DNA of 64,000 bases from a virus: positions 23,432 through 87,431 of the IMG/VR virus record IMGVR_UViG_3300045988_088152; one strand, given 5' to 3'. Every line of letters starts with the position of its first letter. The first letter of the stretch is position 1. Both the position numbers and the translations under genes were made by a program. Below the pieces are notes generated by a model, which was not told the origin of the DNA, made no database searches, and worked only from the letters and a program-made list of their open reading frames with translations. This document shows positions 3,001 through 60,588 of the stretch, one piece after another.

Positions 3001-3741
3001 TTTAGATAATACGCGATTTGCAAAATCTTCAAATTCTGCTTTAAGAGCCTGTTGCTTTGCTTCTAGGCTCTCCATATATTTACTGTTTTCTTGTGCCGCA
3101 GAACCAACCGACTCTAAGGCTGTTTTAGTTGCGTCAGCCGCATGATCAAAGTTCTGCATCACACTGGCAAGGACTTTATATTGATTCTGCCCCGCGATAG
3201 TATCACCAAGAGCCGTTCTTTGTGCATCTGTCATAGAATCCCATTTGGGCTTCAATTCAGATAACACATCAAATGTACTCTTTAAGCTACCATCTACATT
3301 TTCTACTGTAATACCATATTCTGCAAGAGCATCTTTATTCTTTACAATACGAGCTGCAATCGTCGATAAACCTCTGGCAACCTGACTACTGCGCCCTTGC
3401 ATGATTTCTGTACCGCTAGTTACGAGACCTATGACTTGTTCAAATGAATTACCATAAGTAGCCATACCGCTAGCAGCAATTTCCATTGCTTGTGATAGGT
3501 CATTAGTACCCACACTGAAATTGTTTGCTACTTCGTTGTATGCATCAATAACATGAGTGGCAAAACTAGCGTCCTCACCAAATGCACGAATCTGTGAAAC
3601 AATAGAGGCGGCTGCATCTTCTGCTGAAACAGCCGTATCAGCTACGTTCTGATAAGAAGCAGCAACTTTTGCAAGCATAGCGGCATCTGAATCATTAAAT
3701 CCACTTTTTCGGAACATAGATGCTGCCGATACCATCTCTGA
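1..3741 (-). CDS. tail tape measure protein, main body (proposed 3' exon); partial, runs off left edge
   Basis: My own minus-strand translation is open from 3741 to position 1. It is absent from the ORF track because it has no stop in the window. It reads SEMVSAASMFRKSGFNDSDAAMLAKVAASYQNVAD...GTEIMQGRSSQVARGLSTIAARI, which resembles the TP901-type tape-measure core. A hydrophobic Gly-rich segment, long Q/E/K-rich stretches and a Gly8 run (1321-1344) follow. The + strand ORFs at 224-3145 are antisense shadows. Confidence 0.85.
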
Positions 3742-17408: not shown

Positions 17409-17646
17409 ATTTCGCCCTCCTTTCTTTGTTTTATTGTTTATATATTAGAGCAGTTAGATTATGGACTTCATTAACGTATGCCAAAGTTCATTGAGCTACT
17501 TATCCTCCCTATCCGCTCGTTTTATATTTTTGAGTGTTTTTATTTTCGGCTTTTGACTAAGCCTAAGTTGGAACTTGGATTCCACACAACCCTAATAGTA
17601 CCTCCACGACAACACACCAACATAGTAGCCGCTTCATAGGCAAATA

Positions 17647-19491
17647 TCAATAGACTAATTGAATGGAGTCTATATCAAACTCATCTTCTTGCAACTGTTG
17701 TTGCCATGCGTTCTCAATCAAATCAATAATATAGTTACCATACATGATAGTCACAATTCTATCCTTTGTTCCTGTGCGCGGTTCTTCCAATTTGATTTTA
17801 TCCTGCTTGATAACCGTCTTTAGATTAACTGCCTCTATAACCATCATATCAGTTTGACCATACGGCTCAAGCTGATTAGCTAATTCTTCAGCAGTGTATT
17901 GATAATATTCTCCACTATCTGTTAGCTCGTTCTGATAGTCTTGCATAGAAATAAGAAATTTCATATTGTTAGTTTCAAGCTGTTTGCGTAATGACAACCA
18001 ACCACTACTGTTTAATTCAGGTGTCGCAATAACAGGTATTAAGCAAGGTACTGCGTTCTTATCAACCGTTCTACTATGATAATCGTCAACTTTAGCTTGA
18101 GATACTACTTGGTATTTATCAGCAAGCCCAAATCCACGAGAATCCCATCTTGAGCCTAAATCTGGACGTAGTAATGGTTCTGTCAAATGATTAAATATGA
18201 CTTCTCCACCACTTCTTCCATCGAATGCGGCATAATCAGCGTCATAGACCCACCATAAATATCTAAATCTATCAGACGCGCCTATTGTATCAGAAGCATC
18301 ATGCCCCTCTATATAGTCAACGTGTCGTTCAAATCTATTCTTTTTGCTATTCCAATGCGCCGACATTAACGTTATAATGGTATTGTCGTTTTTTGTGCAA
18401 CCAGTGGTGTTCGCAAAAGCAATATCCATGACTACTAACCGTATCTCGTCCTCTTTCTTTTCTGGAAAGTCAGGTTGTTCACCAGCAAAAAATTGTAATG
18501 CAGTGGGCGGACGGAAACAATGCTCAATGATTTGATTCTCTTTGAAAGATTTTAGATTAAAGAACGCATCATCGCCCTCTGAAATCATCTCGTTCAAATC
18601 TTCCATTCTAAAGTCCATTTCGCCGCCAGCCTTACCATTCCAATAATCAGCCCACGTCTTAAAACCATTATCAATAGCCATAAATATATCACCGGCAAAA
18701 ATATTACATCTTACTTTGGTGTCGGTAAATATACGAGTAAATGTCTTTTTGAATAATAGCCAAAACCACTCAAACTTATATCTAGCAGATGTGATATATA
18801 TATGTTGACATTCCTCTTTCCAACGTGGATTATTACCATATACAGGATTACTAAGATATTTGGCTTGCCTTGGATGCGCCATCTTCTCAAAGACGGAATC
18901 AACCATGCCTTTTTTCAACAAGCGGGCTTCTTCATATGTAAGAATTGTTGCTCTTGGGCCACGAGAGCTATCTTGACACGGTAATACACGCAAAGTAGAA
19001 CCGTTAAGCTTGTTCTCTATTCTATAACCATCTTCTGGTTTAGTAATAACCAAATATTCATGCTCATACATATATAAGAGATATGGCGATAATTTTTTAA
19101 TCAATTCATCCCTTATTTTATCTTCAACCATCTTGTTTGCCTGTGCAACAGTTGATGATGTAATTACCGCCTCTGTGTAAGGATAAAGATTCATCTTTAC
19201 AATATTGCCTAGACCCACAATGAAGGTTTTGGATAAGCCACGACAACATATTGCAAAAAATACATCGGATATGCCCATCAGATATATCATTATCATCTGA
19301 AATGGGCGCAACTTAATACCAAGAACTAAATCAACATATATATGCCAATTCCGGCGTAACTAGAATAAAGTCAGCCACTCTATAGCATTTTCCTCTTTCT
19401 TTGCATCTTTCATTGCGTTTTCTTTTGCTTTTGCCGTAATTAGGTGGTTTCCAAGGAACTTGCGTCTCAAGCCCCCCATCTGACTTTTCAT
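17647..19491 (-). CDS. terL: terminase large subunit, with one in-frame TAG at 19362-19360
   Basis: ORF track 17647..19311 has a Walker-A-like CRGLSKTF and a nuclease-type MDIAFANTTG. The same frame is open upstream to an ATG at 19491 with an SD (GGTGGTGA). Only one TAG interrupts it. The conserved LGIKLRPFQ helix spans the ORF-track start. Confidence 0.7.
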
Positions 19492-23356: not shown

Positions 23357-25930
23357 CTACTGTTTTAACATGTCTCCCGTGCGGACAGGTGGAGCTTCAC
23401 GCGATTCAGTACGCCGCTGATTATCCGCCTTCTTATAGCATTCCTCTGAGCAATAATGCTGACATACATCGCGCGGCTTGAATCGCTTGCCGCAAATGGG
23501 ACAAATTGGATTGAGTTGCGCCGTATTGATTCTCAAATTTTCTACAATCGTCCAACCAAAACAAGCCCACAGCATTTTCTTATTACTTGATTTTTTGACC
23601 GTATATAAATAAGCAACTAAGCTATTAACCACAACATCTAGCGGCTCATTGCTATACTCCACTATATCTTGTGTTATGCGGCGATATTTATACAAATCGT
23701 CTTCATTGATATGTGGGTCATCGCCATAATCGAATCGGCGCTGATTCCATATCCACCAATTATACCTCTCTATGATTGGTGAATTTTCTCTAGTGGTATA
23801 ATCAACTGATTTATTTATCAGCATCGTCCAGTCAAATTTTCCAATCTTGTTATTATAGCGGATTCTGGAAGCAGGGATTTTTGTCGATATACGATTCATT
23901 GTGGAATTGTTAGGAGGTTCTACTTGGGTATCTGGGTCTTTGTCTTTGGCATATTGAAAGAAATTTGGAACACGAGCTTTTGTATATTGCTTGATAGTGT
24001 TATTGATTTGTTTCGGTCGTTCTGGCAGCCATTGCGTCTTAGCGCAATCTATAACAGCGTTGTTCTCGAAACAAAGCCATTTTACTACATCTAGCTCTTC
24101 TTGTGTGATTTCGCCACTGTTCCATATTTTTGTAATATTGTTACTAACCGGTCCTATATTGCCTTTAGTATAAGCATTGACCATTCCATTATACATGCTG
24201 TCTGGATTTAATAAGCCGCCCTTAGCTTTTTTGAGGTCATATGCTAGAGGAACTATATCTTGCATATTGTGTTTGGCGCAACTTGTCAACGTTCTATCTT
24301 TTACTACTAGAGCCTTATCCCCATCTACGTCAAACATAAGGTAACGTGAAATAAGGTCGTGGCAACTAGTATATATACACTTAGTTCCACCAAACCAATA
24401 ATCAAGCTCTAAGTTGCGCCGATTCGTCCTAATTGCCCATTCTCGATATAGGTGCGGCGAACGTAAGCAAGCCAATGTTTCTTCGTCTCGATATTGATTT
24501 GTATATACATCGCCATCTGCAAGCAGTCCTTGTGGGTTTTGTTGTCCTAAAAATAACCATTCGCAAAACGCATATAGATCGGGCGCTAAGAATAGATATT
24601 TTCCATTTACTCTAAGCCGCCCACCTTTGGCTTGTTTAACTAGGCTTTTTTTAGTCTGTTTCAAAATTTCTCGGTTATATGAATCTTTGAACAGCTCAGG
24701 ATATATCAGCAACGCCTCTTGCATAGCTGATTTATACCGGTTATTCTCTGTTGCGCCAAGTAGCCTCATAGTAACTTGATAATCATTACCAACATCATCA
24801 ATCTCTTGCGCCGTCTTAGAGATGATGCGGTCAATCTCATTATCTGTCATATCGCTCAATGTCTGCAACATCTGATAGTTGATGCGGCTCTTTGGAATAT
24901 AAGGCTCCTCTATATTGCAATAACAAGCATTGCATCCAAAATTTTTGAATCGCGCCTTATAGCAATCCCACGAATCATAAAATTTCCATAGCTTGAATTG
25001 GCTCTTTGTGAATATATACCGTATATCTTCCTCTATAATTTTATGCTCATTTCCATAAATATCTGTTACAGTTGTCTCCCCACCACATTTCTCTTTGATA
25101 AACTTGTCAAATGGAAATGTAACAAGCAATCCCTTTACCCATGGCATACGTACCATTCTTGTTGTTTCATCAAGCATAATACCGCATCCGTCCATATGAG
25201 GAATAACCGTATTTGTCATCTCGCGTTTAATTTCATACGTAACACCATCAATATGGTCAACCAATCCCGGAACAGCCGTTTCCCAATCATCTACCACAAT
25301 TGATTTGTCAATGTCAAAATCTTGCCAAACATCTGTAGCAGAGTTCATAAGCGCCAAATAAGCAAGGAACTTGTTTTGATTCATGCCTCCCCGCTCATTG
25401 ATTTCATCTATGGTCAAGCCGCACATCAATTTTTGCTCAATGCGCTTAAACGACGATTCTTTGACAAATACAGCTCTTTTCGTTCTTATCTGTCCTGCTG
25501 ATGCAGTAAGGAACACATATTTTTCACCATTGTAAATAAATCCTTGACGAACTAGATTATTAAATACTTGAAAGAAAAATACGTTGATAATGAACAGCTC
25601 ATCTGTCAATTTGAATGGCTCAAGACCTAAGCTGCGTGTTAAATCGGATTCAAATAGATTAACAACCGTCTTATCTGTCACAGCATCTTGTCGCAATTCT
25701 CTAGTTACGTTTCGATTTACTGCATCATCAAGCAATTCAGATAACCGTGCCTTTTCTTTTTTGAGTAAACGATTTACCGACTTGATGCGCCAATCTGGCT
25801 TTCCGTCATCCTTCCATCGCTTACGCAACGAATATAACCGAACGAGCCGAGTATGTAATATCATTTCGTTATCGTCATAAAATGCGCTAGTATCTATTGA
25901 ATGCAAATAAATTTGCGTCTGTAGGCTCAA
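23357..25930 (-). CDS. YonO/RDR-like single-subunit (two-barrel) RNA polymerase
   Basis: 857 aa. It has LMFDVDGDKALV (a DxDGD metal-binding motif), an upstream ASAGQIRTKRAVFV resembling the RDR-family SxSQxR block, and a C-terminal CPICG...C..C zinc ribbon. The TTG start is coupled to the upstream small ORF. Confidence 0.6.
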   Translation of the reverse strand: MSLQTQIYLHSIDTSAFYDDNEMILHTRLVRLYSLRKRWKDDGKPDWRIKSVNRLLKKEKARLSELLDDAVNRNVTRELRQDAVTDKTVVNLFESDLTRSLGLEPFKLTDELFIINVFFFQVFNNLVRQGFIYNGEKYVFLTASAGQIRTKRAVFVKESSFKRIEQKLMCGLTIDEINERGGMNQNKFLAYLALMNSATDVWQDFDIDKSIVVDDWETAVPGLVDHIDGVTYEIKREMTNTVIPHMDGCGIMLDETTRMVRMPWVKGLLVTFPFDKFIKEKCGGETTVTDIYGNEHKIIEEDIRYIFTKSQFKLWKFYDSWDCYKARFKNFGCNACYCNIEEPYIPKSRINYQMLQTLSDMTDNEIDRIISKTAQEIDDVGNDYQVTMRLLGATENNRYKSAMQEALLIYPELFKDSYNREILKQTKKSLVKQAKGGRLRVNGKYLFLAPDLYAFCEWLFLGQQNPQGLLADGDVYTNQYRDEETLACLRSPHLYREWAIRTNRRNLELDYWFGGTKCIYTSCHDLISRYLMFDVDGDKALVVKDRTLTSCAKHNMQDIVPLAYDLKKAKGGLLNPDSMYNGMVNAYTKGNIGPVSNNITKIWNSGEITQEELDVVKWLCFENNAVIDCAKTQWLPERPKQINNTIKQYTKARVPNFFQYAKDKDPDTQVEPPNNSTMNRISTKIPASRIRYNNKIGKFDWTMLINKSVDYTTRENSPIIERYNWWIWNQRRFDYGDDPHINEDDLYKYRRITQDIVEYSNEPLDVVVNSLVAYLYTVKKSSNKKMLWACFGWTIVENLRINTAQLNPICPICGKRFKPRDVCQHYCSEECYKKADNQRRTESREAPPVRTGDMLKQ

Positions 25931-38801: not shown

Positions 38802-39143
38802 ATGGGGTTAGATATTAGAATTTATCAAATGAGGCCAGTTTGTTGTCCTCATTGTGGTGAATTGGTTACATATAAGGTGGTTGATGCCGTTGACGGCTCT
38901 GGTAGCGTATGGTACGAATTTCTTGCATCGGTTGGCTACTATAAGCCATATATAAAAGGGCAACAATATAATCAAGATATGTATGGTATGGACATGACGT
39001 TGACCAATGAACAGGTGAACGAGTTGTCTAAATTTGTGGATAAGACAGAGTTAAAGGACTGGTATTATATTACAGAGGTTAAAGACTTGATACAATCGGT
39101 TCGTATTGATGGCGATAAAATTGTAATCAATGCAGATTGGTGA
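38802..39143 (+). CDS. hypothetical protein
   Basis: ORF track. Confidence 0.55.
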   Translation: MGLDIRIYQMRPVCCPHCGELVTYKVVDAVDGSGSVWYEFLASVGYYKPYIKGQQYNQDMYGMDMTLTNEQVNELSKFVDKTELKDWYYITEVKDLIQSVRIDGDKIVINADW

Positions 39144-39159
39144 GGATGAGGATTAGCAT

Positions 39160-39315
39160 ATGCTTAACACCTATTTTAAAATTGGCGATTTCATTTGCCA
39201 TGTTGACTGCTATGATAGAGAAACTGGACTATGGGGATATAGATGTGATGAAATCCCAATTCTCAATGGTTGGGCTTGTGAAAAATTTATTGAAATGAAT
39301 AAAATTTGTTCTTGA
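39160..39315 (+). CDS. hypothetical 51-aa protein
   Basis: My own reading. Its stop TGA lies inside the next -35 hexamer. Confidence 0.4.
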   Translation: MLNTYFKIGDFICHVDCYDRETGLWGYRCDEIPILNGWACEKFIEMNKICS

Positions 39316-39340
39316 CAAATAGCTAATTGTGTGATATAAT
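39312..39340 (+). promoter_or_regulatory. sigma-A type promoter
   Basis: TTGACAAAT-N14-TGaTATAAT. Confidence 0.7.
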
Positions 39341-39371
39341 ATAATTACCAAATGAAAGGATAGTAAATATT

Positions 39372-39575
39372 ATGGACAAGAAATTGGTTAAGTTCATAGA
39401 AAGTGCATACGAGACGGCATTATTGTGTAACGACAAAACTGACGCAAAGTTTTATATGCATCAAAGTCTTGGAGCTTGCTGTTACGAATATGAGCGATCT
39501 GGGGATATGGATGCAATCAATATCTGGCGTGATGAATGGCGAGAAAAATTTGAAAAAATAATTCTTGACAAATAG
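39372..39575 (+). CDS. hypothetical protein
   Basis: ORF track. It ends ...ILDK-TAG, with its last codons forming the next -35. Confidence 0.55.
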   Translation: MDKKLVKFIESAYETALLCNDKTDAKFYMHQSLGACCYEYERSGDMDAINIWRDEWREKFEKIILDK

Positions 39576-39593
39576 TACCTCTTATGGTATAAT
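39565..39593 (+). promoter_or_regulatory. sigma-A type promoter driving the first tRNA-containing unit
   Basis: TTGACAAAT-N14-TGgTATAAT. Confidence 0.7.
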
Positions 39594-39694
39594 ACAGATG
39601 TGGTTGAGAGATTGGGCAACCTCAATTACAGTTCTTCATTGTGAACCTCCTAGAATATAGTCCTGAGCATGACGATAAAAGGCTCAGCAAAAAT

Positions 39695-39787
39695 GGCGGT
39701 GTCGGTTAATGGTAAGCCAGCTGGCCTATACCCAGTTTAGTCCTAGATTGGGGCAAAATCAGAGTTCGACCCTCTGCGCCGCTACCA
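39695..39787 (+). tRNA. class II (long variable arm) tRNA with atypical anticodon loop CCUAUAC (UAU if read canonically)
   Basis: Hand fold. Acceptor GGCGGTG/CGCCGCT. D arm GGTT-AATGGTA-AGCC. Anticodon arm GCTGG-CCTATAC-CCAGT. 23-nt variable arm with a GTCC/GGGC stem. T arm CAGAG-TTCGACC-CTCTG. ACCA is encoded. Confidence 0.65.
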
Positions 39788-40005
39788 AGGTGATCGCAGT
39801 TAAAGCAATTTCAGTTAACACCTAAACAAACAGTTGAAATTGCGGGTTATGATTGTATGAGCCAAAAATCAATTCGTTCAGAAATCAATCGTTAACTGAC
39901 CACAATTCACCTATGAGTGTATAAAGTAGGGACCAAATTTTAAGGAAACCGTTTATAAGGCACTAGATAGTAATAAACGGAACCAATTATCAATGAGGTG
40001 ATAAT

Positions 40006-40344
40006 ATGCGACTGTATTTTGATATTGATGACAACTGGTACGAAGGATATGATTCCTATGATTTTAAGCAAGACGTTAGAAATGGCATAGTGAAATCAAT
40101 AACAAAAAATCTATTAACAGAAGGCAAATATAGCTTAACAGAAGAAGAAGCGCGTCAGATTGTTGAAGAAAACAAAGCTGAGATTATCGATAAGGTTGTA
40201 CAGAAGGTGAGCGACGTAATTCTCAAGAAGCAAGAAATCAAATCGCTTGCGCCATCTTTTTCAGAGTTGAAAAATGCAGATGCTCAAGTGGTAAAGTATT
40301 TTGAAGAAATGGTCGATAAGGCGATTGCCAAGAGGTTTAAGTAA
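40006..40344 (+). CDS. hypothetical protein
   Basis: ORF track. Confidence 0.55.
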   Translation: MRLYFDIDDNWYEGYDSYDFKQDVRNGIVKSITKNLLTEGKYSLTEEEARQIVEENKAEIIDKVVQKVSDVILKKQEIKSLAPSFSELKNADAQVVKYFEEMVDKAIAKRFK

Positions 40345-40345
40345 T

Positions 40346-40588
40346 ATGGAAAAATCTCCACTAAGAGCCATAAGACAACACTGCTTGGAATGTAGCTGCG
40401 GTTCAGCTTATGAAGTAAAGAATTGTGTTATCCATGATTGTAATCTATATCCGTTTCGCCTAGGCAACAATCCGTTTCGTACCCGCTCAATGACCGATGA
40501 ACAGAAACAAGCTGCGACAGAACGGCTCAAATCAGCTCGTTTGGCAAAGAAATCATTGATTAATAATGAAAAAATTCAGATTAGTTGA
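40346..40588 (+). CDS. hypothetical Cys-rich small protein
   Basis: ORF track frame; the product starts MEKSPLRAIRQHCLECSCGS...C..HDC. Confidence 0.55.
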   Translation: MEKSPLRAIRQHCLECSCGSAYEVKNCVIHDCNLYPFRLGNNPFRTRSMTDEQKQAATERLKSARLAKKSLINNEKIQIS

Positions 40589-40662
40589 TTAGGGATAGTA
40601 AGTTGTAGGGTTAAATGTTTAGGAAAATTTATTGATTATTAGTGTATGAATAAGGAGAATAT

Positions 40663-40992
40663 ATGAAAGTAGTAGTAGGAAATCGTGGTTCAGGTGTAAC
40701 GACTAATATGTTACTAGATGCGGCAATTCATGATGGCACAATTATTACATCAACGTTGGGACAGCGATTCAATATTGAGGCTAACGCTAAGAGACTTTGG
40801 ATTGATTGCCCAGAGGTTATTGATATACATAGTGTACTCAACGACATTAAGACTGGAAATATTGAAAAATACGATAATGCTCAGTTGTATATCGACAATG
40901 CAGGTCTGGTGCTAAATAGATTATTGAGCGAAATTGGCATCAAAGGTAAGGTTGTTGAAATCGGCTTGAGTATGGATGGAATTGATAATTGA
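40663..40992 (+). CDS. hypothetical protein
   Basis: ORF track. Confidence 0.5.
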   Translation: MKVVVGNRGSGVTTNMLLDAAIHDGTIITSTLGQRFNIEANAKRLWIDCPEVIDIHSVLNDIKTGNIEKYDNAQLYIDNAGLVLNRLLSEIGIKGKVVEIGLSMDGIDN

Positions 40993-41120
40993 TGATTATT
41001 CTATTATCTTGTCTAGGCTCATTTGCGGCTGGCATTGCAGTCGGGATGCTGATTGTGTATTTATACTGGCGTAGAGTAGAAAGAGAACTCAACGAAGCTA
41101 TTGAAAAAAACATTAAATAA
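40992..41120 (+). CDS. 42-aa single-pass membrane peptide
   Basis: My own reading: MMIILLSCLGSFAAGIAVGMLIVYLYWRR... Confidence 0.35.
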   Translation: MIILLSCLGSFAAGIAVGMLIVYLYWRRVERELNEAIEKNIK

Positions 41121-41134
41121 ATGCAATTTAACGC

Positions 41135-41163
41135 TTGACAAATAAAATCAAGTATGGTATAAT
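41135..41163 (+). promoter_or_regulatory. sigma-A type promoter driving the long noncoding unit
   Basis: TTGACAAAT-N14-TGgTATAAT. Confidence 0.7.
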
Positions 41164-41677
41164 TGAGAATGTAAAGATGATGGTGCTGTATGAACGGATG
41201 TTCCATACTACAGTGATTGCATATGAGTAGGTTACAGCTAAGTGGAGTTTGAGGAACAGCCATCATTATATAGGGAACGTGCGTAAGATAAATGAGATAA
41301 GCATGAATGGCATTCTTAAAGGAGCGACTGTGAGCGCCGAATGCTGAGTAATGCCAAGTAGGGCACACTGGTCAATCTGTTCGGCATAATAAAAGGGATT
41401 GGGATTGACAAATATAAAATGACACATCGGAAAGACGATGATAATATCCGACAAGATTTGAAGATAACCGTCAAATCTATATCACATCTCACTGGCATAG
41501 AGACAGGGTAGAGTTTGAGACATCACCTGATAACGAGTAGACATTTGCCGTAGCTGGCAATAGTGTTCCATTGGCACAAAGACACAATGGTAAATGTGAT
41601 ATAAGGGCAAAATGACAGCATTCACAAGCTGATGCTAGAAATAGCTATGAGGTAGGAAGTCGGCTTGAGATAAATAT

Positions 41678-41754
41678 GGCTCAGTACCCCAATCGGCAGA
41701 GGGAGCGGATTCAAAATCCGTAAAGTGTGGATTCGAATTCCACCTGAGCTACCA
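41678..41754 (+). tRNA. class I tRNA, anticodon CAA by canonical reading
   Basis: Hand fold. Acceptor GGCTCAG/CTGAGCT. Anticodon arm GCGGA-TTCAAAA-TCCGT. 5-nt variable loop. T arm GTGGA-TTCGAAT-TCCAC. ACCA is encoded. Confidence 0.65.
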
Positions 41755-41953
41755 AAGTCCACTGCTTGTTGGATGCATACGACTTGTTAAACTGAATAGG
41801 AATCCAATGCTTCTAATGGGTTGATGCTTAAAGCCCATTACCAGTAGTTATGGTTTGTTGACCATTGTTTGGATTACTAGCCAATCGATGCCTAGGGTCG
41901 ATAAAAACAAATCAATGGCGGTTCCGGTAGGTTGAGCCTAAAGCCTACTATCT

Positions 41954-42023
41954 GGAAGCGTAGCTCAGGTGATAGAGTGGCGGCAATGCCGTTGTGTCGT
42001 TGGTTTGAATCCAACCGCTTCCA
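41954..42023 (+). ncRNA. tRNA-like element with a truncated anticodon loop
   Basis: Perfect acceptor GGAAGCG/CGCTTCC. D arm GCTC-AGGTGATA-GAGT. T arm GTTGG-TTTGAAT-CCAAC. The anticodon arm is GCGGC-AAT-GCCGT, a 3-nt loop. No CCA is encoded. Confidence 0.5.
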
Positions 42024-42395
42024 TTTGGGTTTAGAATTACACGCAGCTATGCTCAGCATTGTAACTGTCCCAGATGTAAACCTAAGAAAATCTTAAAATC
42101 CTTAGATTTGTAAGGTTGAGATAATGATTTGGTCACATGAATCTCAATCTAGTTTATAGGTTGTAATGCTAGTTGCTGAATAGCTGATGGTTGACCACCT
42201 GATGCTATGAGGCAACGCCTTAATTCCTTGATGATACTAGTTAAATCAAGGTTGACTGGATTCAAATAAGTAATCACAAAGAGTGAGCGGCGGCAGACTC
42301 ATAGCGCGGTGAATGCCTATTCCGCGCAAAACAATATAGGGCTTGGGTAAGAGGACCCTGTAAGTAGTTGATAGTGGAACAATAACCCTATATAT

Positions 42396-42432
42396 CAAGT
42401 CAATATGCGCATGAACATTGCGACTTGTTTTA
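42396..42432 (+). terminator. intrinsic terminator ending the noncoding unit
   Basis: CAAGTC...GACTTG stem with an inner CGCA/TGCG stem, followed by TTTTAAT. Confidence 0.55.
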
Positions 42433-42474
42433 ATAAAATTTTATTAGAAATTGAAAGGAAATTAAAAGGAATTT

Positions 42475-42750
42475 ATGACCAAGAAGGAACTAATCAAGTT
42501 TGTAGCAGACAGCACAGAGAATACGGTCAAGGATACTACTGAGATTGTAGACACATTCATTGACTATATCAGACATAGCCTAGTCCAGCATGAAGATGTA
42601 GTGATTCATGGTTTTGGCAAGTTTGCGACCAAGATGCGTGACTCTCGTACTGCTCGCAATCCACAGACTGGTGAAACCATTGAAGTTCCTGCCAAATATG
42701 CTTTGGTGTTCAAGACAGCAAGCACACTAAAGGCAGAAATCAATGAGTAA
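42475..42750 (+). CDS. hup: HU-family DNA-binding protein
   Basis: HGFGKFATKMRDSRTARNPQTGETIEVPA is the canonical HU arm. Confidence 0.9.
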   Translation: MTKKELIKFVADSTENTVKDTTEIVDTFIDYIRHSLVQHEDVVIHGFGKFATKMRDSRTARNPQTGETIEVPAKYALVFKTASTLKAEINE

Positions 42751-42764
42751 ATAATCCTCCTATT

Positions 42765-42798
42765 AATCCCTATGGTCGAAAGATTATAGGGATTTTTC
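42765..42798 (+). terminator. intrinsic terminator after the HU gene
   Basis: AATCCCTAT ... ATAGGGATT stem followed by TTTT. Confidence 0.7.
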
Positions 42799-42809
42799 TA
42801 AAAGAACCC

Positions 42810-42838
42810 TTGACAAATCGCCGCTATGGTGCTATACT
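42810..42838 (+). promoter_or_regulatory. sigma-A type promoter (TTGACA-N17-TGcTATACT)
   Basis: Upstream of the recombinase gene. Confidence 0.65.
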
Positions 42839-42867
42839 TAAATCATCAAATAAAGGAGCGGAACATT

Positions 42868-43704
42868 ATGAATGAACTGTTTGTTATGAGTCTCAAGGCA
42901 AAGCATCGTAGCGAAGGTACTATTCGTGAATATACCAAGGCGATTGAGAATTGCTTGGATTATGTCAACAAACCAGAAGCCGAAATCAAGCCGATTGACC
43001 TTGAATTATGGCAGTCCAGCATGAGCAATCTTAGCTCTGCATCTGTTGCTCAGAGAACATCTGCGGTTCGTGAATATTTCAAGTTCCTTTATAGGAATGA
43101 GTTCATTAACCGCAATCCAGCTGAGATGCTTGAAGCACCACAGATTAAGAATCGTGAGCAGTCGGCTCTTAATGGCGAACAGGTCAGAGCAATGGTCAAT
43201 GCTGCAACCAATGAGCGTAATAAGGCGATTATCATGATGCTTGCTCAAACCGGCTTGCGTATCCATGAACTTGCCAATATCACGCTCGAACAGTATGAAT
43301 CCCGTAGCAATAATGTACTGGTCATCCGTGGTAAGGGAGACAAGGATAGACTCGTTGGCTTGGCTGACGAGACGATTGAGTTGATTGATAGCTATATTGC
43401 CAATGAGCGCAAAGATGGTTGTGAATATCTGTTTGTTGGCAACAGAGGAAATAAAATGGACGGTAAGAATACCAGTGCAATGCTCAAGGTATGTGCTAGA
43501 AAATCTGGTATTGAGAATTGGGAGGAATTGCATATCAGCAATCATACGATGCGCCGCACATTTGCTACTATGATGTCTGAGGCTGATGTACCTATTGAGG
43601 TAATTAGCAAGGCAATGGGGCATAGCGGAATCCAGATTACATCTAGGTATGTTAAACGCACTGAGCAGAGAGCTGTCAACGCAATGAGCGTTGTTAATTT
43701 TTAA
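42868..43704 (+). CDS. tyrosine recombinase (XerC/D / phage integrase family)
   Basis: TGLRIHEL...GKGDKDR...HTMRRTFAT...GHSGIQITSRY contains the R, HxxR and Y catalytic pattern. Confidence 0.85.
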   Translation: MNELFVMSLKAKHRSEGTIREYTKAIENCLDYVNKPEAEIKPIDLELWQSSMSNLSSASVAQRTSAVREYFKFLYRNEFINRNPAEMLEAPQIKNREQSALNGEQVRAMVNAATNERNKAIIMMLAQTGLRIHELANITLEQYESRSNNVLVIRGKGDKDRLVGLADETIELIDSYIANERKDGCEYLFVGNRGNKMDGKNTSAMLKVCARKSGIENWEELHISNHTMRRTFATMMSEADVPIEVISKAMGHSGIQITSRYVKRTEQRAVNAMSVVNF

Positions 43705-45116: not shown

Positions 45117-45309
45117 GCGCCCGTCCCACATTTACGAAATCCCCTGTAACCGTTGTGATTATCAATCTGATTGTGACCGATATGTGAAAATCGACCCACG
45201 CATGACAGCACAGCGTGATAAAATGTGGAATGATGCTGATTTGAATTGTATGGATTGTGTGCTGAGAAATGTGCTAAAGATGAGGAAGGATGGTGCTAAT
45301 GCCAGCTAA
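45109..45309 (+). CDS. hypothetical Cys-rich protein
   Basis: ORF track frame. Confidence 0.5.
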   Translation: MSKRPSHIYEIPCNRCDYQSDCDRYVKIDPRMTAQRDKMWNDADLNCMDCVLRNVLKMRKDGANAS

Positions 45310-46699
45310 ATCATCTGGCACATCCAAGCCATATCTACATTTTATTGGTGGTAATGCCGCATCTGTAACAGGTTCATGCACGATTGTTCGATTCGACAAT
45401 ATTAAATTAGCTGTTGATATGGGTCTAATTCAGACAAATAATCTAGTAGCTGATTATCGCGCTAATCGTGATCAGATGAAGAAAATTAAGCCAAAGACAG
45501 TACATGGTGTTATTATATCACATTGCCATTACGATCATTGTATGGGTGTTCTTGCCGCTGTTGCCATGGGTATGCAAGCATATATCTATATCCCTCAAGG
45601 ATCAATCCCTATCCTCAAGATAATGATGGATGATTGTATTAAAATCATGGCACAGGATAGCTTAAAGATGCAGAACAAGCATGGTATCAAAGCACCGCCA
45701 TTGGCTACTGAGGCGGATATTGATAAGGTAATGCAATGGCTTGTCGAAGTGCCGTTTGACGTTCCTACAACCATTGTAGGCGGTGCAAAGCTAACATATT
45801 ATCATGCTGGTCATATTGTTCATTCGGCTCAAGCCGTGTTGGAAATCAAACAAGGGTATAGCATCAAGCGAATTGGCTTTACAGGCGATTTCAATACAGA
45901 GGCTAAGAGCGTATCTGTGCCACCAATCGAGACATTGCCAAGATGTAATGTAGTGGTTGGTGAATGCACATATAGTGACCCTACTAGATGCTATAGCACG
46001 AAGAAAGACCGATGGTATGATGAGCAGATTATCAATGCGGCTATATGCCAATATAACCGTATTTTGATGCCAGCTTTTAGCTTGCAGCGCGTAGAGGATA
46101 TTCTTGATGTTCTATGGCGCACACGAGCCACAGAGCGCAAGATTGATGAACAGATGATTCCTGTTTATCTTGATTCGCCGCTTGCTTGTCGTATTTATAG
46201 AGCATGGTCAGAGCAACTAGATTATGAAGATAAGCTCAACTTGCGGCTAATTGAATCATGGGAAGAAAGCCAAGTAATTCAGCAATCAAACGAACGAGCT
46301 ATTATAGTAGCTAGTAGTGGTATGCTCAATGCTGGACGGGCTTTGGCGCATCTCAAATATATCCTGCCTAATAGCCGTAATGCCGTGCTATTCTCTGGCT
46401 ATGCTAGTCCTAATACGCTTGCATATGAAATCAAGCATGGTGCAAAAGAAATCATGCTTGATGGTGAGATGATTCAAAACAATGCTCAGATATATTGCTT
46501 AAATACATTTTCGTCTCATGCTAATTATAACCAGCTAATGCAATATTACCAGAATATAGATTATGATAAATTGTGCTTAGTACATAGTGAATTTTCAAGC
46601 AAAGTGGAATTTGTTAATACTCTACAAGATGAGCTAATCAAACAAGGTAAATCAAGTAGAGTTGTATGTACTCAGCAAGATCAGAAGGTATTCATATGA
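45290..46699 (+). CDS. metallo-beta-lactamase fold hydrolase/nuclease
   Basis: SHCHYDHCMG is the HxHxDH motif. The 469-aa size is compatible with a beta-CASP type nuclease, but that is not verified. Confidence 0.75.
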   Translation: MVLMPAKSSGTSKPYLHFIGGNAASVTGSCTIVRFDNIKLAVDMGLIQTNNLVADYRANRDQMKKIKPKTVHGVIISHCHYDHCMGVLAAVAMGMQAYIYIPQGSIPILKIMMDDCIKIMAQDSLKMQNKHGIKAPPLATEADIDKVMQWLVEVPFDVPTTIVGGAKLTYYHAGHIVHSAQAVLEIKQGYSIKRIGFTGDFNTEAKSVSVPPIETLPRCNVVVGECTYSDPTRCYSTKKDRWYDEQIINAAICQYNRILMPAFSLQRVEDILDVLWRTRATERKIDEQMIPVYLDSPLACRIYRAWSEQLDYEDKLNLRLIESWEESQVIQQSNERAIIVASSGMLNAGRALAHLKYILPNSRNAVLFSGYASPNTLAYEIKHGAKEIMLDGEMIQNNAQIYCLNTFSSHANYNQLMQYYQNIDYDKLCLVHSEFSSKVEFVNTLQDELIKQGKSSRVVCTQQDQKVFI

Positions 46700-59973: not shown

Positions 59974-60588
59974 ATGAAATATAATGTAGAGCTGATAAGA
60001 TGTAAACGTAGCAATCCAGAATATCAAGAAATTAGAGATAGGCATTATATACCGAATCATGGTACATTTGGTCAGCAAATTCATTATCTTATAAAATTAG
60101 ATGGTGAGACAGTTGGGATTATTTCTGGCGCATCTGCTGTATATGCTGTAAAAGCCAGAGATGATTATTTCGGCTTGACAAAAGAAAATAAGAGGGTCGC
60201 GCTTAACTCAATTATTAACAATACTGTGTTTCGGTTGGAAAATAACTTGCCTAATCTTGGTACGCAGATTTTAGCTATGTGGCGCAAACAAATCGCCGCA
60301 GATTGGGAAACGCAGTATCATGTGCGTGTTCATGGATTTGAAACATTTGTTATTGAGAACGAAACAAGAAAAGGATGTATGTATAAAGCTGATAATTGGG
60401 AGTATATAGGACAAACAAAGGGCAGTACAAAGACGCATAATGGTATGCAAAATAAATCAAAGAGGCTAGATACAGAGATTAAGCTAATATATGTTAAGAA
60501 AATTAAGGGAACGCATCTTTGTACCGAGTATACACCAACATGGCGATTAAGCGCAAAAGAAAAGTCAATGCTGAAGCAAGGAGGTTAA
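59974..60588 (+). CDS. DUF4338 (DruA-like) domain protein
   Basis: RHYIPNHGTFGQQIHYLI...ARDDYFGL...INNTVFRL...LPNLGTQILAMWRKQIAADWETQY...GFETFV...GCMYKADNWEYIGQTKG tracks the DUF4338 consensus as I recall it (RYHYLG...RD.fIGW...VNN.RFLIL..VPNLAS..L....DW...YG...LETFVD...G.CYRAANW..vG.T.G). Confidence 0.6.
   Translation: MKYNVELIRCKRSNPEYQEIRDRHYIPNHGTFGQQIHYLIKLDGETVGIISGASAVYAVKARDDYFGLTKENKRVALNSIINNTVFRLENNLPNLGTQILAMWRKQIAADWETQYHVRVHGFETFVIENETRKGCMYKADNWEYIGQTKGSTKTHNGMQNKSKRLDTEIKLIYVKKIKGTHLCTEYTPTWRLSAKEKSMLKQGG

What the first reader, a model, noticed from the sequence alone, without database searches (positions are those of the whole stretch)
41135..42432. ~1.26 kb structured noncoding transcription unit with an embedded tRNA and a tRNA-like module
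A perfect promoter (41135-41163) and a terminator (42396-42432) delimit about 1260 nt. The only ORF-track entries here are minus-strand, Cys/His-rich and lack an RBS. The RNA is dense in perfect helices: ATGATGG...CCATCAT closing 41176-41268, AGATTTGA/TCAAATCT, CCATTG/CAATGG, TAATGGG/CCCATTA, TTGGAT/ATCCAA, GCGCGG/CCGCGC and TATAGGG/CCCTATA. It carries a repeated GGAGTTTGAGGA / TAGAGTTTGAGA motif (41244, 41509). It contains (i) a 77-nt class I tRNA whose canonical anticodon is CAA (UUG), although bacterial Leu tRNAs are class II. It also contains (ii) a 70-nt tRNA-like element with perfect acceptor and T arms but only a 3-nt anticodon loop, so it cannot decode. Large ornate phage-borne RNAs that sit next to or around tRNAs (GOLLD, ROOL) are the obvious comparison, but I cannot test membership by eye. 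The tRNA-like parts could be RNase P/Z processing punctuation that releases the flanking RNAs.
Basis: partly seen in the sequence, partly recalled or inferred. Interest (0 to 1): 0.8.

Follow-up and report, generated by a model that had tools for sequence, protein, structure and literature searches.

The report
Mosaic phage tRNA-linked small-RNA array
This 1.3-kb protein-free stretch of an uncultured phage is not one giant RNA but a string of small, independently folding RNA modules around one tRNA and one tRNA look-alike, and two of the modules belong to widespread RNA families, absent from the Rfam catalogue, that live inside the tRNA gene arrays of many unrelated phages.

Summary
The consensus promoter, the lack of coding capacity, the 77-nt tRNA-Leu(CAA), the 70-nt tRNA-like element with a 3-nt anticodon loop and the listed helices are all present. 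The "terminator" is only a weak hairpin plus U-tract, though it is invariant in relatives.

The "large ornate RNA" reading is not supported. There is no GOLLD or ROOL match even at E≤10. In 22 related phage contigs the unit is a colinear mosaic of cassettes that come and go independently, giving units of 484–2173 nt.

Covariation supports several modules as structured RNAs:
- C1/C2: 15 compensated pairs, 0/500 shuffles.
- E1 and E3: weaker support.

Two modules belong to widespread families that match no Rfam 15 model:
- Module A (41176–41267): more than 120 IMG/VR hits, with strong P1/P2 covariation.
- Module E3b (42334–42393): 48 hits.

Both families sit in phage tRNA arrays, always co-oriented with the tRNAs. 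E3b is often wedged 1–9 nt between two tRNAs, and some arrays also carry ROOL.

Best reading: this is a compact tRNA-array-type RNA operon, whose transcript is cut at the tRNA and tRNA-like elements to release stable small RNAs. Their function is unknown; a role in translation or counter-defence is inferred, not shown.

The parts
41135..41163 (+). Sigma-70-type promoter, TTGACA-17-TATAAT with an extended -10 TG. Conserved at the head of 22 related units.
41176..41267 (+). Module A, a member of a widespread unnamed RNA family. Layout: P1 (GAUGAUGG/CCAUCAU), GGUGC, P2 (GCUG/CAGC), a hypervariable interior, and a conserved 3' internal-loop strand UAAGUGGAGUUUGAGGAACAGCC.
41279..41409 (+). Module B: a conserved scaffold (closing helix GUGCGU/GCGCAC plus the 3' hairpin GUCAAUC...GAUUGAC) carrying a variable-length inserted hairpin. 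Found only in this phage clade. No compensatory pairs.
41441..41613 (+). Module C1: a multi-helix domain closed by a long-range helix. It contains the hairpins AGAUUUGA/UCAAAUCU and CCAUUG/CAAUGG and a hairpin loop AGAGUUUGAGA. In the window the closing helix is partly broken (3 of 9 pairs), which looks like a recombinant junction.
41622..41670 (+). Module C2: a hairpin with an inner GCUA-GAAA-UAGC stem-loop and a 14-nt purine-rich 3' bulge. It lies immediately 5' of the tRNA slot in 21 of 22 units. In some relatives a 290-nt cassette separates it from C1.
41678..41754 (+). tRNA-Leu(CAA), 77 nt, with a short variable region, A73 and an encoded CCA. The same slot holds 84-85-nt class II Leu tRNAs in relatives.
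41755..41843 (+). Module D1: three predicted hairpins, the last (UAAUGGG...CCCAUUA) followed by CCA. In relatives a tRNA-Met follows directly. Too conserved to test by covariation.
41844..41953 (+). Module D2: it ends in a hairpin (GUAGGUUGAGCCUAAAGCCUAC) paralogous to the last hairpin of D1. Present in 6 related units. Structure untested.
41954..42023 (+). tRNA-like element (tX): perfect 7-bp acceptor stem, D arm, T arm with loop UUUGAAU, a 5-bp anticodon stem closed by a 3-nt loop, and no encoded CCA. The slot holds other aberrant tRNA-like alleles in relatives.
42024..42089 (+). Module E0: a predicted hairpin, present in about half of the units. Structure untested.
42090..42219 (+). Module E1: two hairpin domains. 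The first has a variable, compensated stem. The second is an irregular hairpin with tandem G-A internal loops. Found only in this clade.
42220..42297 (+). Module E2: a poorly conserved linker cassette, replaced by other cassettes in most relatives.
42304..42327 (+). Module E3a: the hairpin GCGCGG/CCGCGC with compensatory changes. A similar hairpin occurs in a second phage clade.
42334..42393 (+). Module E3b, a member of a second widespread unnamed RNA family. It has a covarying closing helix (AUAUAGGG/CCCUAUAU) around the almost invariant core CUUGGGUAAGAGGACCCUGUAAGUAGUUGAUAGUGGAACAAUAA.
42396..42432 (+). Conserved weak hairpin (CAAGUC...GACUUG) plus a U-tract: a putative terminator or attenuator just upstream of the HU gene (42475-42750). 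It is retained even in relatives that lack the rest of the unit.

Best explanation
The region is a compact, tRNA-array-type RNA operon of a temperate-looking, Firmicutes-type phage known only from metagenomes.

Proposed sequence of events:
1. One strong early-type promoter drives a ~1.27-kb noncoding transcript. It is a chain of about a dozen self-closing RNA modules, one decoding tRNA (Leu, CAA) and one non-decoding tRNA-like element.
2. The modules are independent, exchangeable cassettes rather than domains of one large RNA.
3. Host RNase P cuts at the 5' sides of the tRNA and the tRNA-like element. RNase Z or exonucleases act at the 3' sides: RNase Z at the CCA-less tRNA-like element, exonucleolytic trimming at the CCA-encoding tRNA.
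4. These cuts should split the transcript into about five species:
   - ~514 nt (A+B+C1+C2)
   - the 77-nt tRNA
   - ~199 nt (D1+D2)
   - the 70-nt tRNA-like RNA
   - ~409 nt (E0-E3 plus the terminal hairpin)
   Other RNases may cut further between modules.
5. Modules A and E3b belong to two widespread RNA families that live in the tRNA arrays of many unrelated phages and are released there in the same way.

Shown: noncoding status, the promoter, cassette modularity, conserved and covarying structure for A, C1/C2, E1, E3a and E3b, family membership of A and E3b, and their strict co-orientation and adjacency with tRNAs.

Inferred: co-transcription as one unit, the processing sites, stability of the products, and any trans-acting role. 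The likeliest role is acting on the host translation or tRNA machinery, or on tRNA-directed defences.
For: Promoter and noncoding status.

Cassette behaviour: 22 related units of 484-2173 nt share a fixed module order with presence/absence and allelic replacement of single modules. For example L018 keeps A, B and E0-E3 but lacks C, the tRNA, D and tX. L025 lacks A and B. L010 has only B, C2 and a tRNA. Each module closes on itself.

Structure:
- C1/C2: 61 pairs, 98.2% of cells paired, 15 pairs compensated against 3.9 +/- 1.6 in shuffles (0/500) and 1-3 in slid controls.
- E1: 4 compensated pairs. E3: 2 compensated pairs.

A family:
- There are 73 distinct full-length elements.
- P1/P2 show 115 compensated cells against 34.7 in shuffles, 0/500, with an invariant U-G pair that fixes the strand.
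- The covariance model scores the window at 54.2 bits and gives 120 hits in 100 other loci.
- 56 of 72 elements have a same-strand tRNA within 1 kb and none has an opposite-strand tRNA.
- ROOL lies in the same arrays in L063, L086 and L097.

E3b family:
- 48 stretches and 36 distinct sequences. 6 of 13 pairs are compensated.
- 14 of 33 elements lie within 100 nt of a same-strand tRNA.
- In L180, L185, L190, L203 and L205 the element is sandwiched between two tRNAs with gaps of 1-9 nt.

tRNA slots: the Leu slot carries three unrelated tRNA bodies with the same CAA/UAA anticodon. The tX slot keeps its acceptor and T arms while the anticodon arm is aberrant.
Against: - No expression or end-mapping data exist. 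Co-transcription, processing and stability are all inferred.
- Only two tRNA-type elements lie in the window's unit. tRNA processing alone therefore cannot separate A, B, C1 and C2 from each other.
- Single-sequence folding energies are ordinary (z +0.01 to -2.6).
- B, D1, D2, E0 and E2 have no covariation support.
- B, C1, C2 and E1 were found only in this clade by exact-pattern scans. B, C, D1/D2 and E1 gave no nhmmer hits in other loci. D and E0 were not pattern-scanned.
- The window's C1 closing helix is partly broken.
- The terminal hairpin is a weak terminator, so the transcript may read through into the HU and integrase genes and also serve as their leader.
- No function can be derived. 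No conserved protein partner was found, and DUF2828, Aminotran_5 and MazF-like neighbours of other A elements are absent from the window.
Confidence: 0.6

Rival explanations
1. One large ornate RNA, or two halves around the tRNA, of the GOLLD/ROOL kind. It would fold as a whole, with the tRNA nested inside it, as in some GOLLD RNAs.
For: - The genomic setting resembles that of GOLLD and ROOL: phage-borne, next to tRNAs, with a strong promoter (PMC5737381 and PMC12286853, read).
- A-family elements co-reside with genuine ROOL RNAs in other phages.
- C1 has a long-range closing helix.
Against: - No match to GOLLD, ROOL or any other large RNA at E<=10 in the window, or at E<=1 in five relatives.
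- Modules are gained, lost and swapped independently, and no helix links modules.
- A and E3b occur alone, in other contexts, in many phages.
Confidence: 0.06
2. A decaying tRNA array. The non-tRNA sequence would be spacer or remnants of dead tRNA genes, with no function of its own. The tRNA-like element would be a pseudogene.
For: - The tX slot holds aberrant alleles: a 3-nt loop in the window, and alleles below the Rfam tRNA threshold in L001-L007.
- Several relatives lack the whole unit (L012, L016, L017).
- Several modules (B, D, E0, E2) show no covariation.
Against: - The tRNA model finds nothing else in the unit at E<=10.
- A and E3b are conserved far beyond this clade, with near-invariant loop sequences and compensated helices.
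- C1/C2 keep 98% of cells paired across lineages that differ at about a quarter of their positions.
- The acceptor and T arms of tX are perfect.
Confidence: 0.1
3. A long structured 5' leader that regulates the downstream HU and integrase genes in cis, by read-through or attenuation at the conserved terminal hairpin. The tRNA would be a passenger.
For: - The terminal hairpin is weak as a terminator yet invariant. It sits 40 nt upstream of the HU start, with no strong promoter in between.
- It is kept even where the rest of the unit is missing.
Against: - The cassettes upstream vary freely without change to HU or the integrase.
- A and E3b occur in tRNA arrays with no HU gene nearby.
- Units from 484 to 2173 nt precede the same gene.
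Confidence: 0.12
4. Protein-coding sequence read under an alternative genetic code, or a set of very small ORFs.
For: A frame without TGA runs 304 codons on the + strand.
Against: - Across the unit, that reading frame holds 10 TAA and 13 TAG codons.
- Recoding any single stop gives at most 94-156 codons.
- Neighbouring genes use the standard code.
- Relatives differ by indels of arbitrary length and by compensatory pair changes.
Confidence: 0.01

Closest known systems
ROOL and GOLLD RNAs (Rfam RF03087, RF01998)
   Same: They are phage- or prophage-borne noncoding RNAs of unknown function that sit next to or inside tRNA islands and are probably co-transcribed with tRNAs (PMC5737381, PMC12286853). 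Genuine ROOL RNAs lie in the same arrays as A-family elements (L063, L086, L097).
   Different: There is no sequence or structure match. ROOL and GOLLD are single RNAs of ~580 to more than 800 nt with multistem junctions and pseudoknots. Here the units are about 25-170 nt, self-closing, and shuffled as cassettes.
Phage T4 tRNA gene cluster with the stable RNAs RNAC and RNAD (species 1 and 2)
   Same: Small stable RNAs of still unknown function are encoded with phage tRNAs (PMC9697503). That they are cut out of tRNA precursor transcripts is from my own knowledge of the T4 literature.
   Different: No sequence relationship was tested or is expected. T4 has eight tRNAs and two extra RNAs. Here the ratio is reversed: one tRNA, one tRNA-like element and about a dozen other modules.
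tRNA punctuation of polycistronic transcripts (mitochondrial transcripts, MALAT1 mascRNA, MHV68 tRNA-miRNA units; from my own knowledge)
   Same: tRNA or tRNA-like folds serve as RNase P/Z cut sites that release flanking RNAs. The tX element keeps exactly the parts those enzymes recognise, the acceptor and T arms, and lacks a usable anticodon loop.
   Different: Processing is not demonstrated here. This is a bacterial phage setting.
RAGATH-33 RNA (Rfam RF03102)
   Same: A described small-RNA motif of unknown function occupies a cassette slot between modules A and B in the sister phage L006 (139.9 bits). The same cassette, N7, is also present in L013. This shows that the locus collects small structured RNAs.
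   Different: It is absent from the window, with no hit at E<=10.
Catalogue of ~10,000 candidate structured RNAs in IMG/VR viruses (PMC10690425)
   Same: It draws on the same data source and reports many unnamed tRNA-like and other motifs. The A and E3b families may be among its anonymous entries.
   Different: I could not check this. No entry is named or characterised in the text I read.
Phage tRNAs as counter-defence (for example the T5 tRNA that neutralises PARIS, PMC11464382)
   Same: Phage-encoded tRNA-type RNAs can act against host tRNA-directed immunity. The variable tX slot and the swapped tRNA bodies in the Leu slot fit an arms-race locus.
   Different: This is purely an analogy. No defence system or nuclease target is identified here.

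Membership tests
ROOL RNA (RF03087) | Match to the Rfam covariance model (gathering score 99.1 bits): ~580 nt, six multistem junctions, three pseudoknots. | tested here: not met
   No hit at E<=10 in window 39000-43500. None at E<=1 in five relatives. The same search method finds ROOL at 297-323 bits in L063, L086 and L097.
GOLLD RNA (RF01998) | Match to the Rfam covariance model: a conserved 3' half, more than 800 nt. | tested here: not met
   No hit at gathering threshold or at E<=10.
tRNA (RF00005), element 41678-41754 | Cloverleaf with a 7-nt anticodon loop, U33, and T and D arms. | tested here: met
   56.6 bits against a threshold of 29. ARAGORN calls tRNA-Leu(CAA), 77 nt.
Bacterial tRNA-Leu (class II), element 41678-41754 | A long variable arm. 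The discriminator A73 is also typical (from my own knowledge). | tested here: not met
   The variable region is 5 nt and A73 is present (alignment). Relatives carry 84-85-nt class II Leu tRNAs in the same slot. Short Leu tRNAs are annotated in phages Peregrin and P-RSM6. Charging identity is not testable here.
tRNA (RF00005), element 41954-42023 | A 7-nt anticodon loop able to present an anticodon. | tested here: not met
   The model aligns at 44.4 bits, but with 3 nt where the 7-nt loop should be. ARAGORN gives no call. It is tRNA-like, not a decoding tRNA.
A family (unnamed; model R1 built here) | P1 ending in GG/CC with a U-G pair. | tested here: met
   Window 41176-41183 pairs with 41260-41267. 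P1 covaries with four Watson-Crick pair types across 45 sequences.
A family (unnamed; model R1 built here) | The 5' GGUGC followed by P2 (CYAC/GURG or equivalent). | tested here: met
   The window has GGUGCUG...CAGC, a compensated variant. P2 shows 86.5% of cells paired, and all 4 pairs have changes on both sides.
A family (unnamed; model R1 built here) | The conserved 3' strand UAARUGGARUNNGANRAACAGCC. | tested here: met
   The window has TAAGTGGAGTTTGAGGAACAGCC, an exact match to the pattern. R1 gives 54.2 bits, E about 1e-9. The window was in the seed, but clade members outside the seed score 52-77 bits.
A family (unnamed; model R1 built here) | Residence in a phage tRNA array, co-oriented with the tRNAs. 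| tested here: met
   The window element lies 411 nt upstream of a same-strand tRNA. Across the family, 56 of 72 elements have a same-strand tRNA within 1 kb and none has an opposite-strand one.
E3b family (unnamed) | A covarying closing helix around the core GGCUUGGGUAAGAGGACCCUGUAAGUAGUUGAUAGUGGAACAAUAACC, with an inner hairpin GGGU/ACCC. | tested here: met
   The core in window 42339-42388 matches the family consensus in alignment A10. 6 of 13 pairs are compensated in 25 sequences.
E3b family (unnamed) | Direct adjacency to tRNAs in arrays. | tested here: not met
   In the window it is followed by the terminal hairpin, and the nearest tRNA-type element ends 310 nt upstream. In other phages 14 of 33 elements lie within 100 nt of a tRNA, often 1-9 nt away. 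This is a contextual trait, not a structural one.
RAGATH-33 (RF03102) | Match to the Rfam model (gathering score 120.4 bits). | tested here: not met
   Absent from the window. Present in relative L006 at 139.9 bits.
Self-cleaving ribozymes (hammerhead, twister, twister-sister, pistol, hatchet, HDV-like) | Match to the respective Rfam models. | tested here: not met
   None at E<=10 in the window, or at E<=1 in five relatives. A new ribozyme class cannot be excluded by computation.

The most novel reading that the evidence does not exclude
Phage tRNA arrays may be general launch pads for whole families of small structured RNAs, released by the host's tRNA-processing enzymes. Modules A and E3b would then be two new, widespread, trans-acting RNA classes. 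Their near-invariant unpaired sequences would bind a conserved host target: a ribosome, a tRNA, a tRNA-processing or tRNA-modifying enzyme, or a tRNA-directed defence nuclease. The window's locus would be a rapidly shuffled 'RNA arsenal' in which tRNA-like elements survive only as cut sites.
Probability: 0.3. Interest if true: 0.85.

Novelty: new variant of a known kind. Interest (0 to 1): 0.65.

Why it matters
GOLLD and ROOL have so far been the prominent noncoding RNAs known to reside in phage tRNA islands, and their function is still unknown.

This locus suggests that the same niche holds many more, much smaller RNA families. Two of them are widespread in IMG/VR (more than 120 and 48 exact-pattern hits). 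They have compensated helices and 20-45 nt of almost invariant unpaired sequence, and neither matches any Rfam 15 model.

They sit where tRNAs sit, sometimes occupying a slot between two tRNAs. That offers a simple and testable biogenesis route through RNase P and RNase Z.

The sister phages form a natural cassette-swap series (484-2173 nt), which shows which modules are independent.

If the RNAs are stable and trans-acting, they are new handles on how phages manipulate translation or evade tRNA-targeting immunity. They are also small enough for structure determination.

Tried and rejected
- **GOLLD, ROOL or any Rfam family.** Rejected for the non-tRNA parts. Gathering and E<=10 scans of the window, E<=1 scans of five relatives, and scans of canonical A and E3b members were all negative.
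- **Alternative genetic code or small ORFs.** Rejected.
- **Homologues in cultured phages.** None. blastn of the whole unit gave only tRNA hits. The conserved 37-mer of A gave no match. The phage's DnaE is at most 38% identical to any GenBank phage.
- **Prophage copies in 185,579 reference genomes, searched via the integrase.** None, so the host remains unknown.
- **Wider distribution of B, C1, C2 and E1.** Exact-pattern scans and nhmmer found only the same clade. These tests are insensitive to distant relatives.
- **The GAGUUUGA motif of A and C1 as a mimic of the 16S rRNA 5' end (AGAGUUUGAUC).** Rejected, because the UU positions are free to vary across the A family.
- **A second, T-arm-like UUUGA hairpin in the A interior (double T-loop idea).** Present in only 9 of 73 members, so it is not a family trait.
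- **A as a promoter-proximal leader.** True in this clade, but only 3 of 73 elsewhere against 1.6 expected.
- **A is not a fragment of ROOL**.
- **Protein partners.** Aminotran_5, DUF2828/DUF7788 and MazF-like genes recur near A elements but are absent from the window.
- **Folding energy as evidence of structure.** Uninformative.
- **Literature searches** for RAGATH-33 and for RNAs of phage tRNA islands gave nothing specific.
Full report
**1. What is in the sequence**

Window 41135-41163 is a perfect TTGACA-17-TATAAT promoter with an extended -10 TG. It is one of three 12/12 promoters within 4.5 kb.

From there to the HU gene (42475-42750; Pfam Bac_DNA_binding) there is no credible ORF.
- The longest stop-free run is 63-71 codons.
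- Recoding any single stop codon gives at most 156 codons.
- A coding control of the same length gives 423 codons.

ARAGORN and Rfam find a 77-nt tRNA with anticodon CAA at 41678-41754.

At a permissive threshold the Rfam tRNA model also aligns 41954-42023 (44.4 bits). Acceptor, D and T arms are intact, but only 3 nt stand where the 7-nt anticodon loop should be. ARAGORN does not call it.

The repeated GAGTTTGAG motif and all the listed helices are present.

The 'terminator' is a weak hairpin (-7.1 kcal/mol) followed by TTTT, and the terminator scan did not call it.

Single-sequence folding energies of the pieces are ordinary, with z from +0.01 to -2.6. Helix density by itself is therefore not evidence of structure.

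**2. Relatives show a cassette mosaic, not one RNA**

The window is an uncultured phage with no close GenBank relative and no prophage copy in 185,579 reference genomes.

The integrase gene just downstream recovered 26 closely related IMG/VR contigs at 89-98% protein identity.
- In 22 of them the same promoter and the same terminal hairpin bracket a noncoding unit of 484 to 2173 nt.
- Three contigs lack everything but the hairpin.

A bin-by-bin comparison and a cassette map show one fixed order:

P - A - (N7/N2/N12) - B - C1 - (N14) - C2 - [Leu-tRNA slot] - (N8) - D1 - (N9) - D2 - [tRNA-like slot] - E0 - E1 - (E2/N10/N5) - E3 - T

Each element is independently present, absent or replaced by an unrelated allele.
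- L018 keeps A, B and E0-E3 at 96-100% identity to the window, but has no C, tRNA, D or tX.
- L025 lacks A and B.
- L010 has only B, C2 and a tRNA.
- L003, L004, L009 and L015 carry a 290-nt cassette inserted exactly between C1 and C2.

Every module closes on itself, and no helix joins modules. This argues against a single ornate RNA.

**3. Evidence of structure, module by module**

- **C1 plus C2 (41441-41670).** The consensus fold has 61 pairs in ten helices and 98.2% of cells paired. Fifteen pairs carry compensatory double changes, against 3.9 +/- 1.6 in column shuffles (0/500) and 1-3 when partners are slid. Most of the double changes separate the window/L008 lineage from the rest, so they represent few independent events. 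They do fall in five different helices, however. The window's own long-range closing helix has 3 of 9 pairs broken, as if its 5' and 3' strands came from different alleles.
- **E1.** Four compensated pairs.
- **E3.** Two compensated pairs.
- **B.** No compensated pairs. It does show the classic pattern of a conserved scaffold with a hairpin of three different lengths inserted at one point.
- **D1, D2, E0 and E2.** These are too conserved, or too rarely present, to test.

**4. Module A belongs to a large unannotated RNA family**

Within the clade, A has an invariant closing helix (GAUGAUGG/CCAUCAU), a compensated second helix (GCUG/CAGC against CUAC/GUAG), at least six unrelated interiors, and a conserved 3' strand.

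The contigs range from about 6 to 412 kb and come from many samples.

I extracted 73 distinct full-length elements of 69-181 nt. All share this layout:

P1 (any sequence, ending GG/CC plus a U-G pair) - GGUGC - P2 (CYAC/GURG) - GAAG - variable hairpins - AGCWGURG - UAAAUGGAGUUUGAUGAACAGCC

In a 45-sequence alignment:
- P1 positions use all four Watson-Crick pairs.
- P1, P2 and two further pairs give 115 compensated cells against 34.7 in shuffles (0/500).
- 91% of cells are paired, against 22-56% when partners are slid.

The invariant U-G pair and the strict co-orientation with tRNAs fix the functional strand. They also argue for an RNA rather than a DNA site.

A covariance model (R1) gives:
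- 54.2 bits for the window, which was in the seed.
- 52-77 bits for clade members that were not in the seed.
- 120 hits in 100 other loci, with up to three copies per locus.

These loci are tRNA arrays.
- 112 loci (0.98 Mb) hold 673 predicted tRNAs.
- 56 of 72 elements have a same-strand tRNA within 1 kb.
- 25 have one within 100 nt.
- None has an opposite-strand tRNA within 1 kb.

Rfam 15 has no model that matches these elements.
- A gathering-threshold scan of twelve member loci returned about a hundred tRNAs, three full-length ROOL RNAs (297-323 bits) and one OLE-fragment hit, but nothing at the A positions.
- An E<=10 scan of the best member also returned nothing.

**5. Module E3b is a second such family**

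A profile of E3 hit unrelated arrays. The core pattern found 48 stretches, about 30 of them outside the clade, and 36 distinct sequences.

The element is 46-69 nt long. A closing helix of free sequence and a small inner hairpin both show compensatory changes (6 of 13 pairs). They surround about 36 invariant nucleotides.

Its context is again tRNA arrays.
- 33 loci hold 212 tRNAs.
- 24 of 33 elements have a same-strand tRNA within 1 kb, 14 within 100 nt, and none on the opposite strand.
- In L180, L185, L190, L203 and L205 the element is wedged between two tRNAs with gaps of 1-9 nt. It thus occupies what would otherwise be a tRNA slot.
- In L097 the order is E3b - A - A - tRNA - tRNA - ... - ROOL, all within 1.5 kb.

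**6. The tRNA and the tRNA-like element**

The Leu slot holds three unrelated tRNA bodies in different sister phages:
- the 77-nt short-variable-arm form, identical in five phages;
- two different 84-85-nt class II forms.

All have anticodon CAA, except one with UAA. The slot is therefore selected for reading UUG/UUA. The short form is a cassette allele, not a damaged gene.

Short Leu tRNAs are not rare in phages.
- Peregrin has a 75-nt and P-RSM6 a 74-nt annotated Leu tRNA. Both are about 82-84% identical to the window tRNA over 61-75 nt.
- Forms of 77-81 nt occur in several arrays fetched here.

In other phages the slot carries:
- a 74-nt allele that ARAGORN calls but the Rfam model rejects, whose 'anticodon' reads TAT, TGT or TAC in otherwise almost identical copies;

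What is kept in every allele is the acceptor stem and the T arm. From established knowledge, these are the parts recognised by RNase P, RNase Z and the CCA-adding enzyme. That fits a role as a processing signal. Simple decay is the alternative.

**7. How it most likely works**

*Shown:*
- a strong promoter;
- a noncoding chain of self-contained, in part demonstrably structured modules;
- one decoding tRNA and one tRNA-like fold;
- membership of two modules in families that live inside tRNA arrays in the same orientation as the tRNAs.

*Inferred:*
- The unit is transcribed as one precursor.
- RNase P cuts at 41678 and 41954.
- 3' processing occurs at 41754 (exonucleolytic, because CCA is encoded) and at 42023 (RNase Z, because there is no CCA and U-rich sequence follows).
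- This yields pieces of about 514, 77, 199, 70 and 409 nt.
- Other RNases may separate the modules further.

What the released RNAs do is unknown. Three features suggest trans-acting RNAs aimed at a conserved host component of translation or at tRNA-directed immunity: the near-invariant unpaired sequences of A and E3b across unrelated phages, their tRNA company, and the rapid cassette turnover of the locus. Phage tRNAs themselves are known to counter such immunity (PMC11464382).

I put about 0.6 on the architecture-and-processing model and much less on any specific function.

**8. Rivals**

- One large ornate RNA: about 0.06. It is contradicted by cassette independence and by negative model searches.
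- A decaying tRNA array or spacer: about 0.1. It is contradicted by conservation and covariation of A, C and E3b.
- A cis-acting leader of HU and integrase: about 0.12. The invariant weak hairpin leaves room for read-through control, but the upstream cassettes vary freely.
- Coding sequence under another genetic code: about 0.01.

**9. Comparison with known systems, and novelty**

By context this locus works like the ROOL and GOLLD neighbourhoods and like the T4 tRNA cluster with its RNAC and RNAD, which are still of unknown function (PMC9697503). By membership tests it is none of them.

RAGATH-33, a described motif, occupies a cassette slot in a sister phage. This shows that the locus collects small RNAs.

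The A and E3b families may appear anonymously in the IMG/VR catalogue of candidate structured RNAs (PMC10690425), which I could not check.

I rate the finding as a new variant of a known kind: noncoding RNAs resident in phage tRNA islands. Two apparently undescribed, widespread families are its most valuable content.

**10. Limits**

- No expression data were available.
- Pattern scans need exact matches, so the 'clade-only' status of B, C1, C2 and E1 is weak negative evidence.
- The host is unknown.
- Compensatory changes in C1 reflect few lineages.

Noticed in passing
window 39565-39787: A second perfect promoter (39565-39593) drives a 93-nt tRNA(UAU, 'Ile') that carries a roughly 17-20-nt insertion in the variable region. 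Four sister phages (L006, L012, L021, L026) have an ordinary 76-nt version, while most others keep the 90-95-nt form. A class-II-like arm on an Ile-anticodon tRNA is unusual.
   Followed up: partly
window 17529-17642 (-): A full-length drum RNA (RF02958; 55.9 bits against a gathering score of 43) lies in a run of minus-strand ORFs, immediately downstream of the 554-aa ORF at 17647-19311.
   Followed up: no
window 23357-25930 (-): An 857-aa ORF matches the Pfam RdRP family PF05183 (E 1.6e-9). This is the eukaryotic-type RNA-dependent RNA polymerase fold, also known in phage YonO-type and crAss-type RNA polymerases (the latter from my own knowledge).
   Followed up: no
window 45290-46699 (+): A 469-aa metallo-beta-lactamase / beta-CASP / RMMBL protein (RNase J/CPSF-like fold) is encoded 2.9 kb downstream of the RNA unit. 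It is a candidate phage RNase that could act on these transcripts.
   Followed up: no
window 59974-60588 (+): A phage-encoded protein carries a Druantia DruA domain (PF14236, E 3e-21).
   Followed up: no
L006 3770-3882 (cassette N7, also present in L013): RAGATH-33 RNA (RF03102, 139.9 bits in L006) sits in a 376-nt cassette inserted between modules A and B of a sister phage.
   Followed up: partly
L001 5031-5104, L002 5057-5130, L003 5058-5131, L004 5085-5158, L005 5033-5106, L007 5031-5104: These are almost identical 74-nt tRNA-like genes whose anticodon triplet alone differs (TAT, TGT, TAC). The Rfam tRNA model does not accept them at its threshold. This could be anticodon switching or drift in a non-decoding loop.
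   Followed up: partly
L177, L181 and L187 (78 nt, CAA); L204 (77 nt, TAG); L097 (81 nt, CAA); L051 (Peregrin, 75 nt); L052 (P-RSM6, 74 nt): Short, class-I-sized 'Leu' tRNAs recur in unrelated phages. In L177, L181 and L187 they lie directly downstream of an E3b element.
   Followed up: partly
L063 5852-6477 (-), L086 6380-7012 (+), L097 5403-5987 (+); L063 187-276 (-): Full-length ROOL RNAs lie in the same tRNA arrays as A-family elements. There is also a 52.9-bit partial match to OLE RNA (model positions 436-595) in L063.
   Followed up: no
window 41741-41752 and 41960-41971: The 3' acceptor strand of the tRNA-Leu (CACCTGAGCTAC) is 12/12 complementary to the D-arm region of the tRNA-like element (GTAGCTCAGGTG). 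This may be chance, arising from common tRNA motifs.
   Followed up: no
L185 (tRNA gene ending 1 nt upstream of E3b at 2559-2612) and L201 (tRNA gene starting 17 nt downstream of E3b at 3151-3213): ARAGORN reports a 90-nt tRNA with anticodon CTA (an amber-reading, 'Pyl'-type call) in L185, and a tRNA with a 4-base anticodon (ttaa) in L201. These may be suppressor or frameshift tRNAs in those phages.
   Followed up: no
window 41814-41843 and 41924-41950: D1 and D2 each end in a paralogous hairpin (GGGUUGAUGCUUAAAGCCC and AGGUUGAGCCUAAAGCCU). The D1 copy is followed by CCA. In sister phages a tRNA-Met starts right after it.
   Followed up: no
L065, L078, L080, L085, L090, L104, L106, L109, L111, L115, L130, L136, L148, L152: A second phage clade (57-135-kb contigs) shares the same P1 sequence of module A and the cassette that follows it in L003. 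Some members also share an E3a-like hairpin, and a MazF-like toxin gene recurs in 14 loci of this group.
   Followed up: partly
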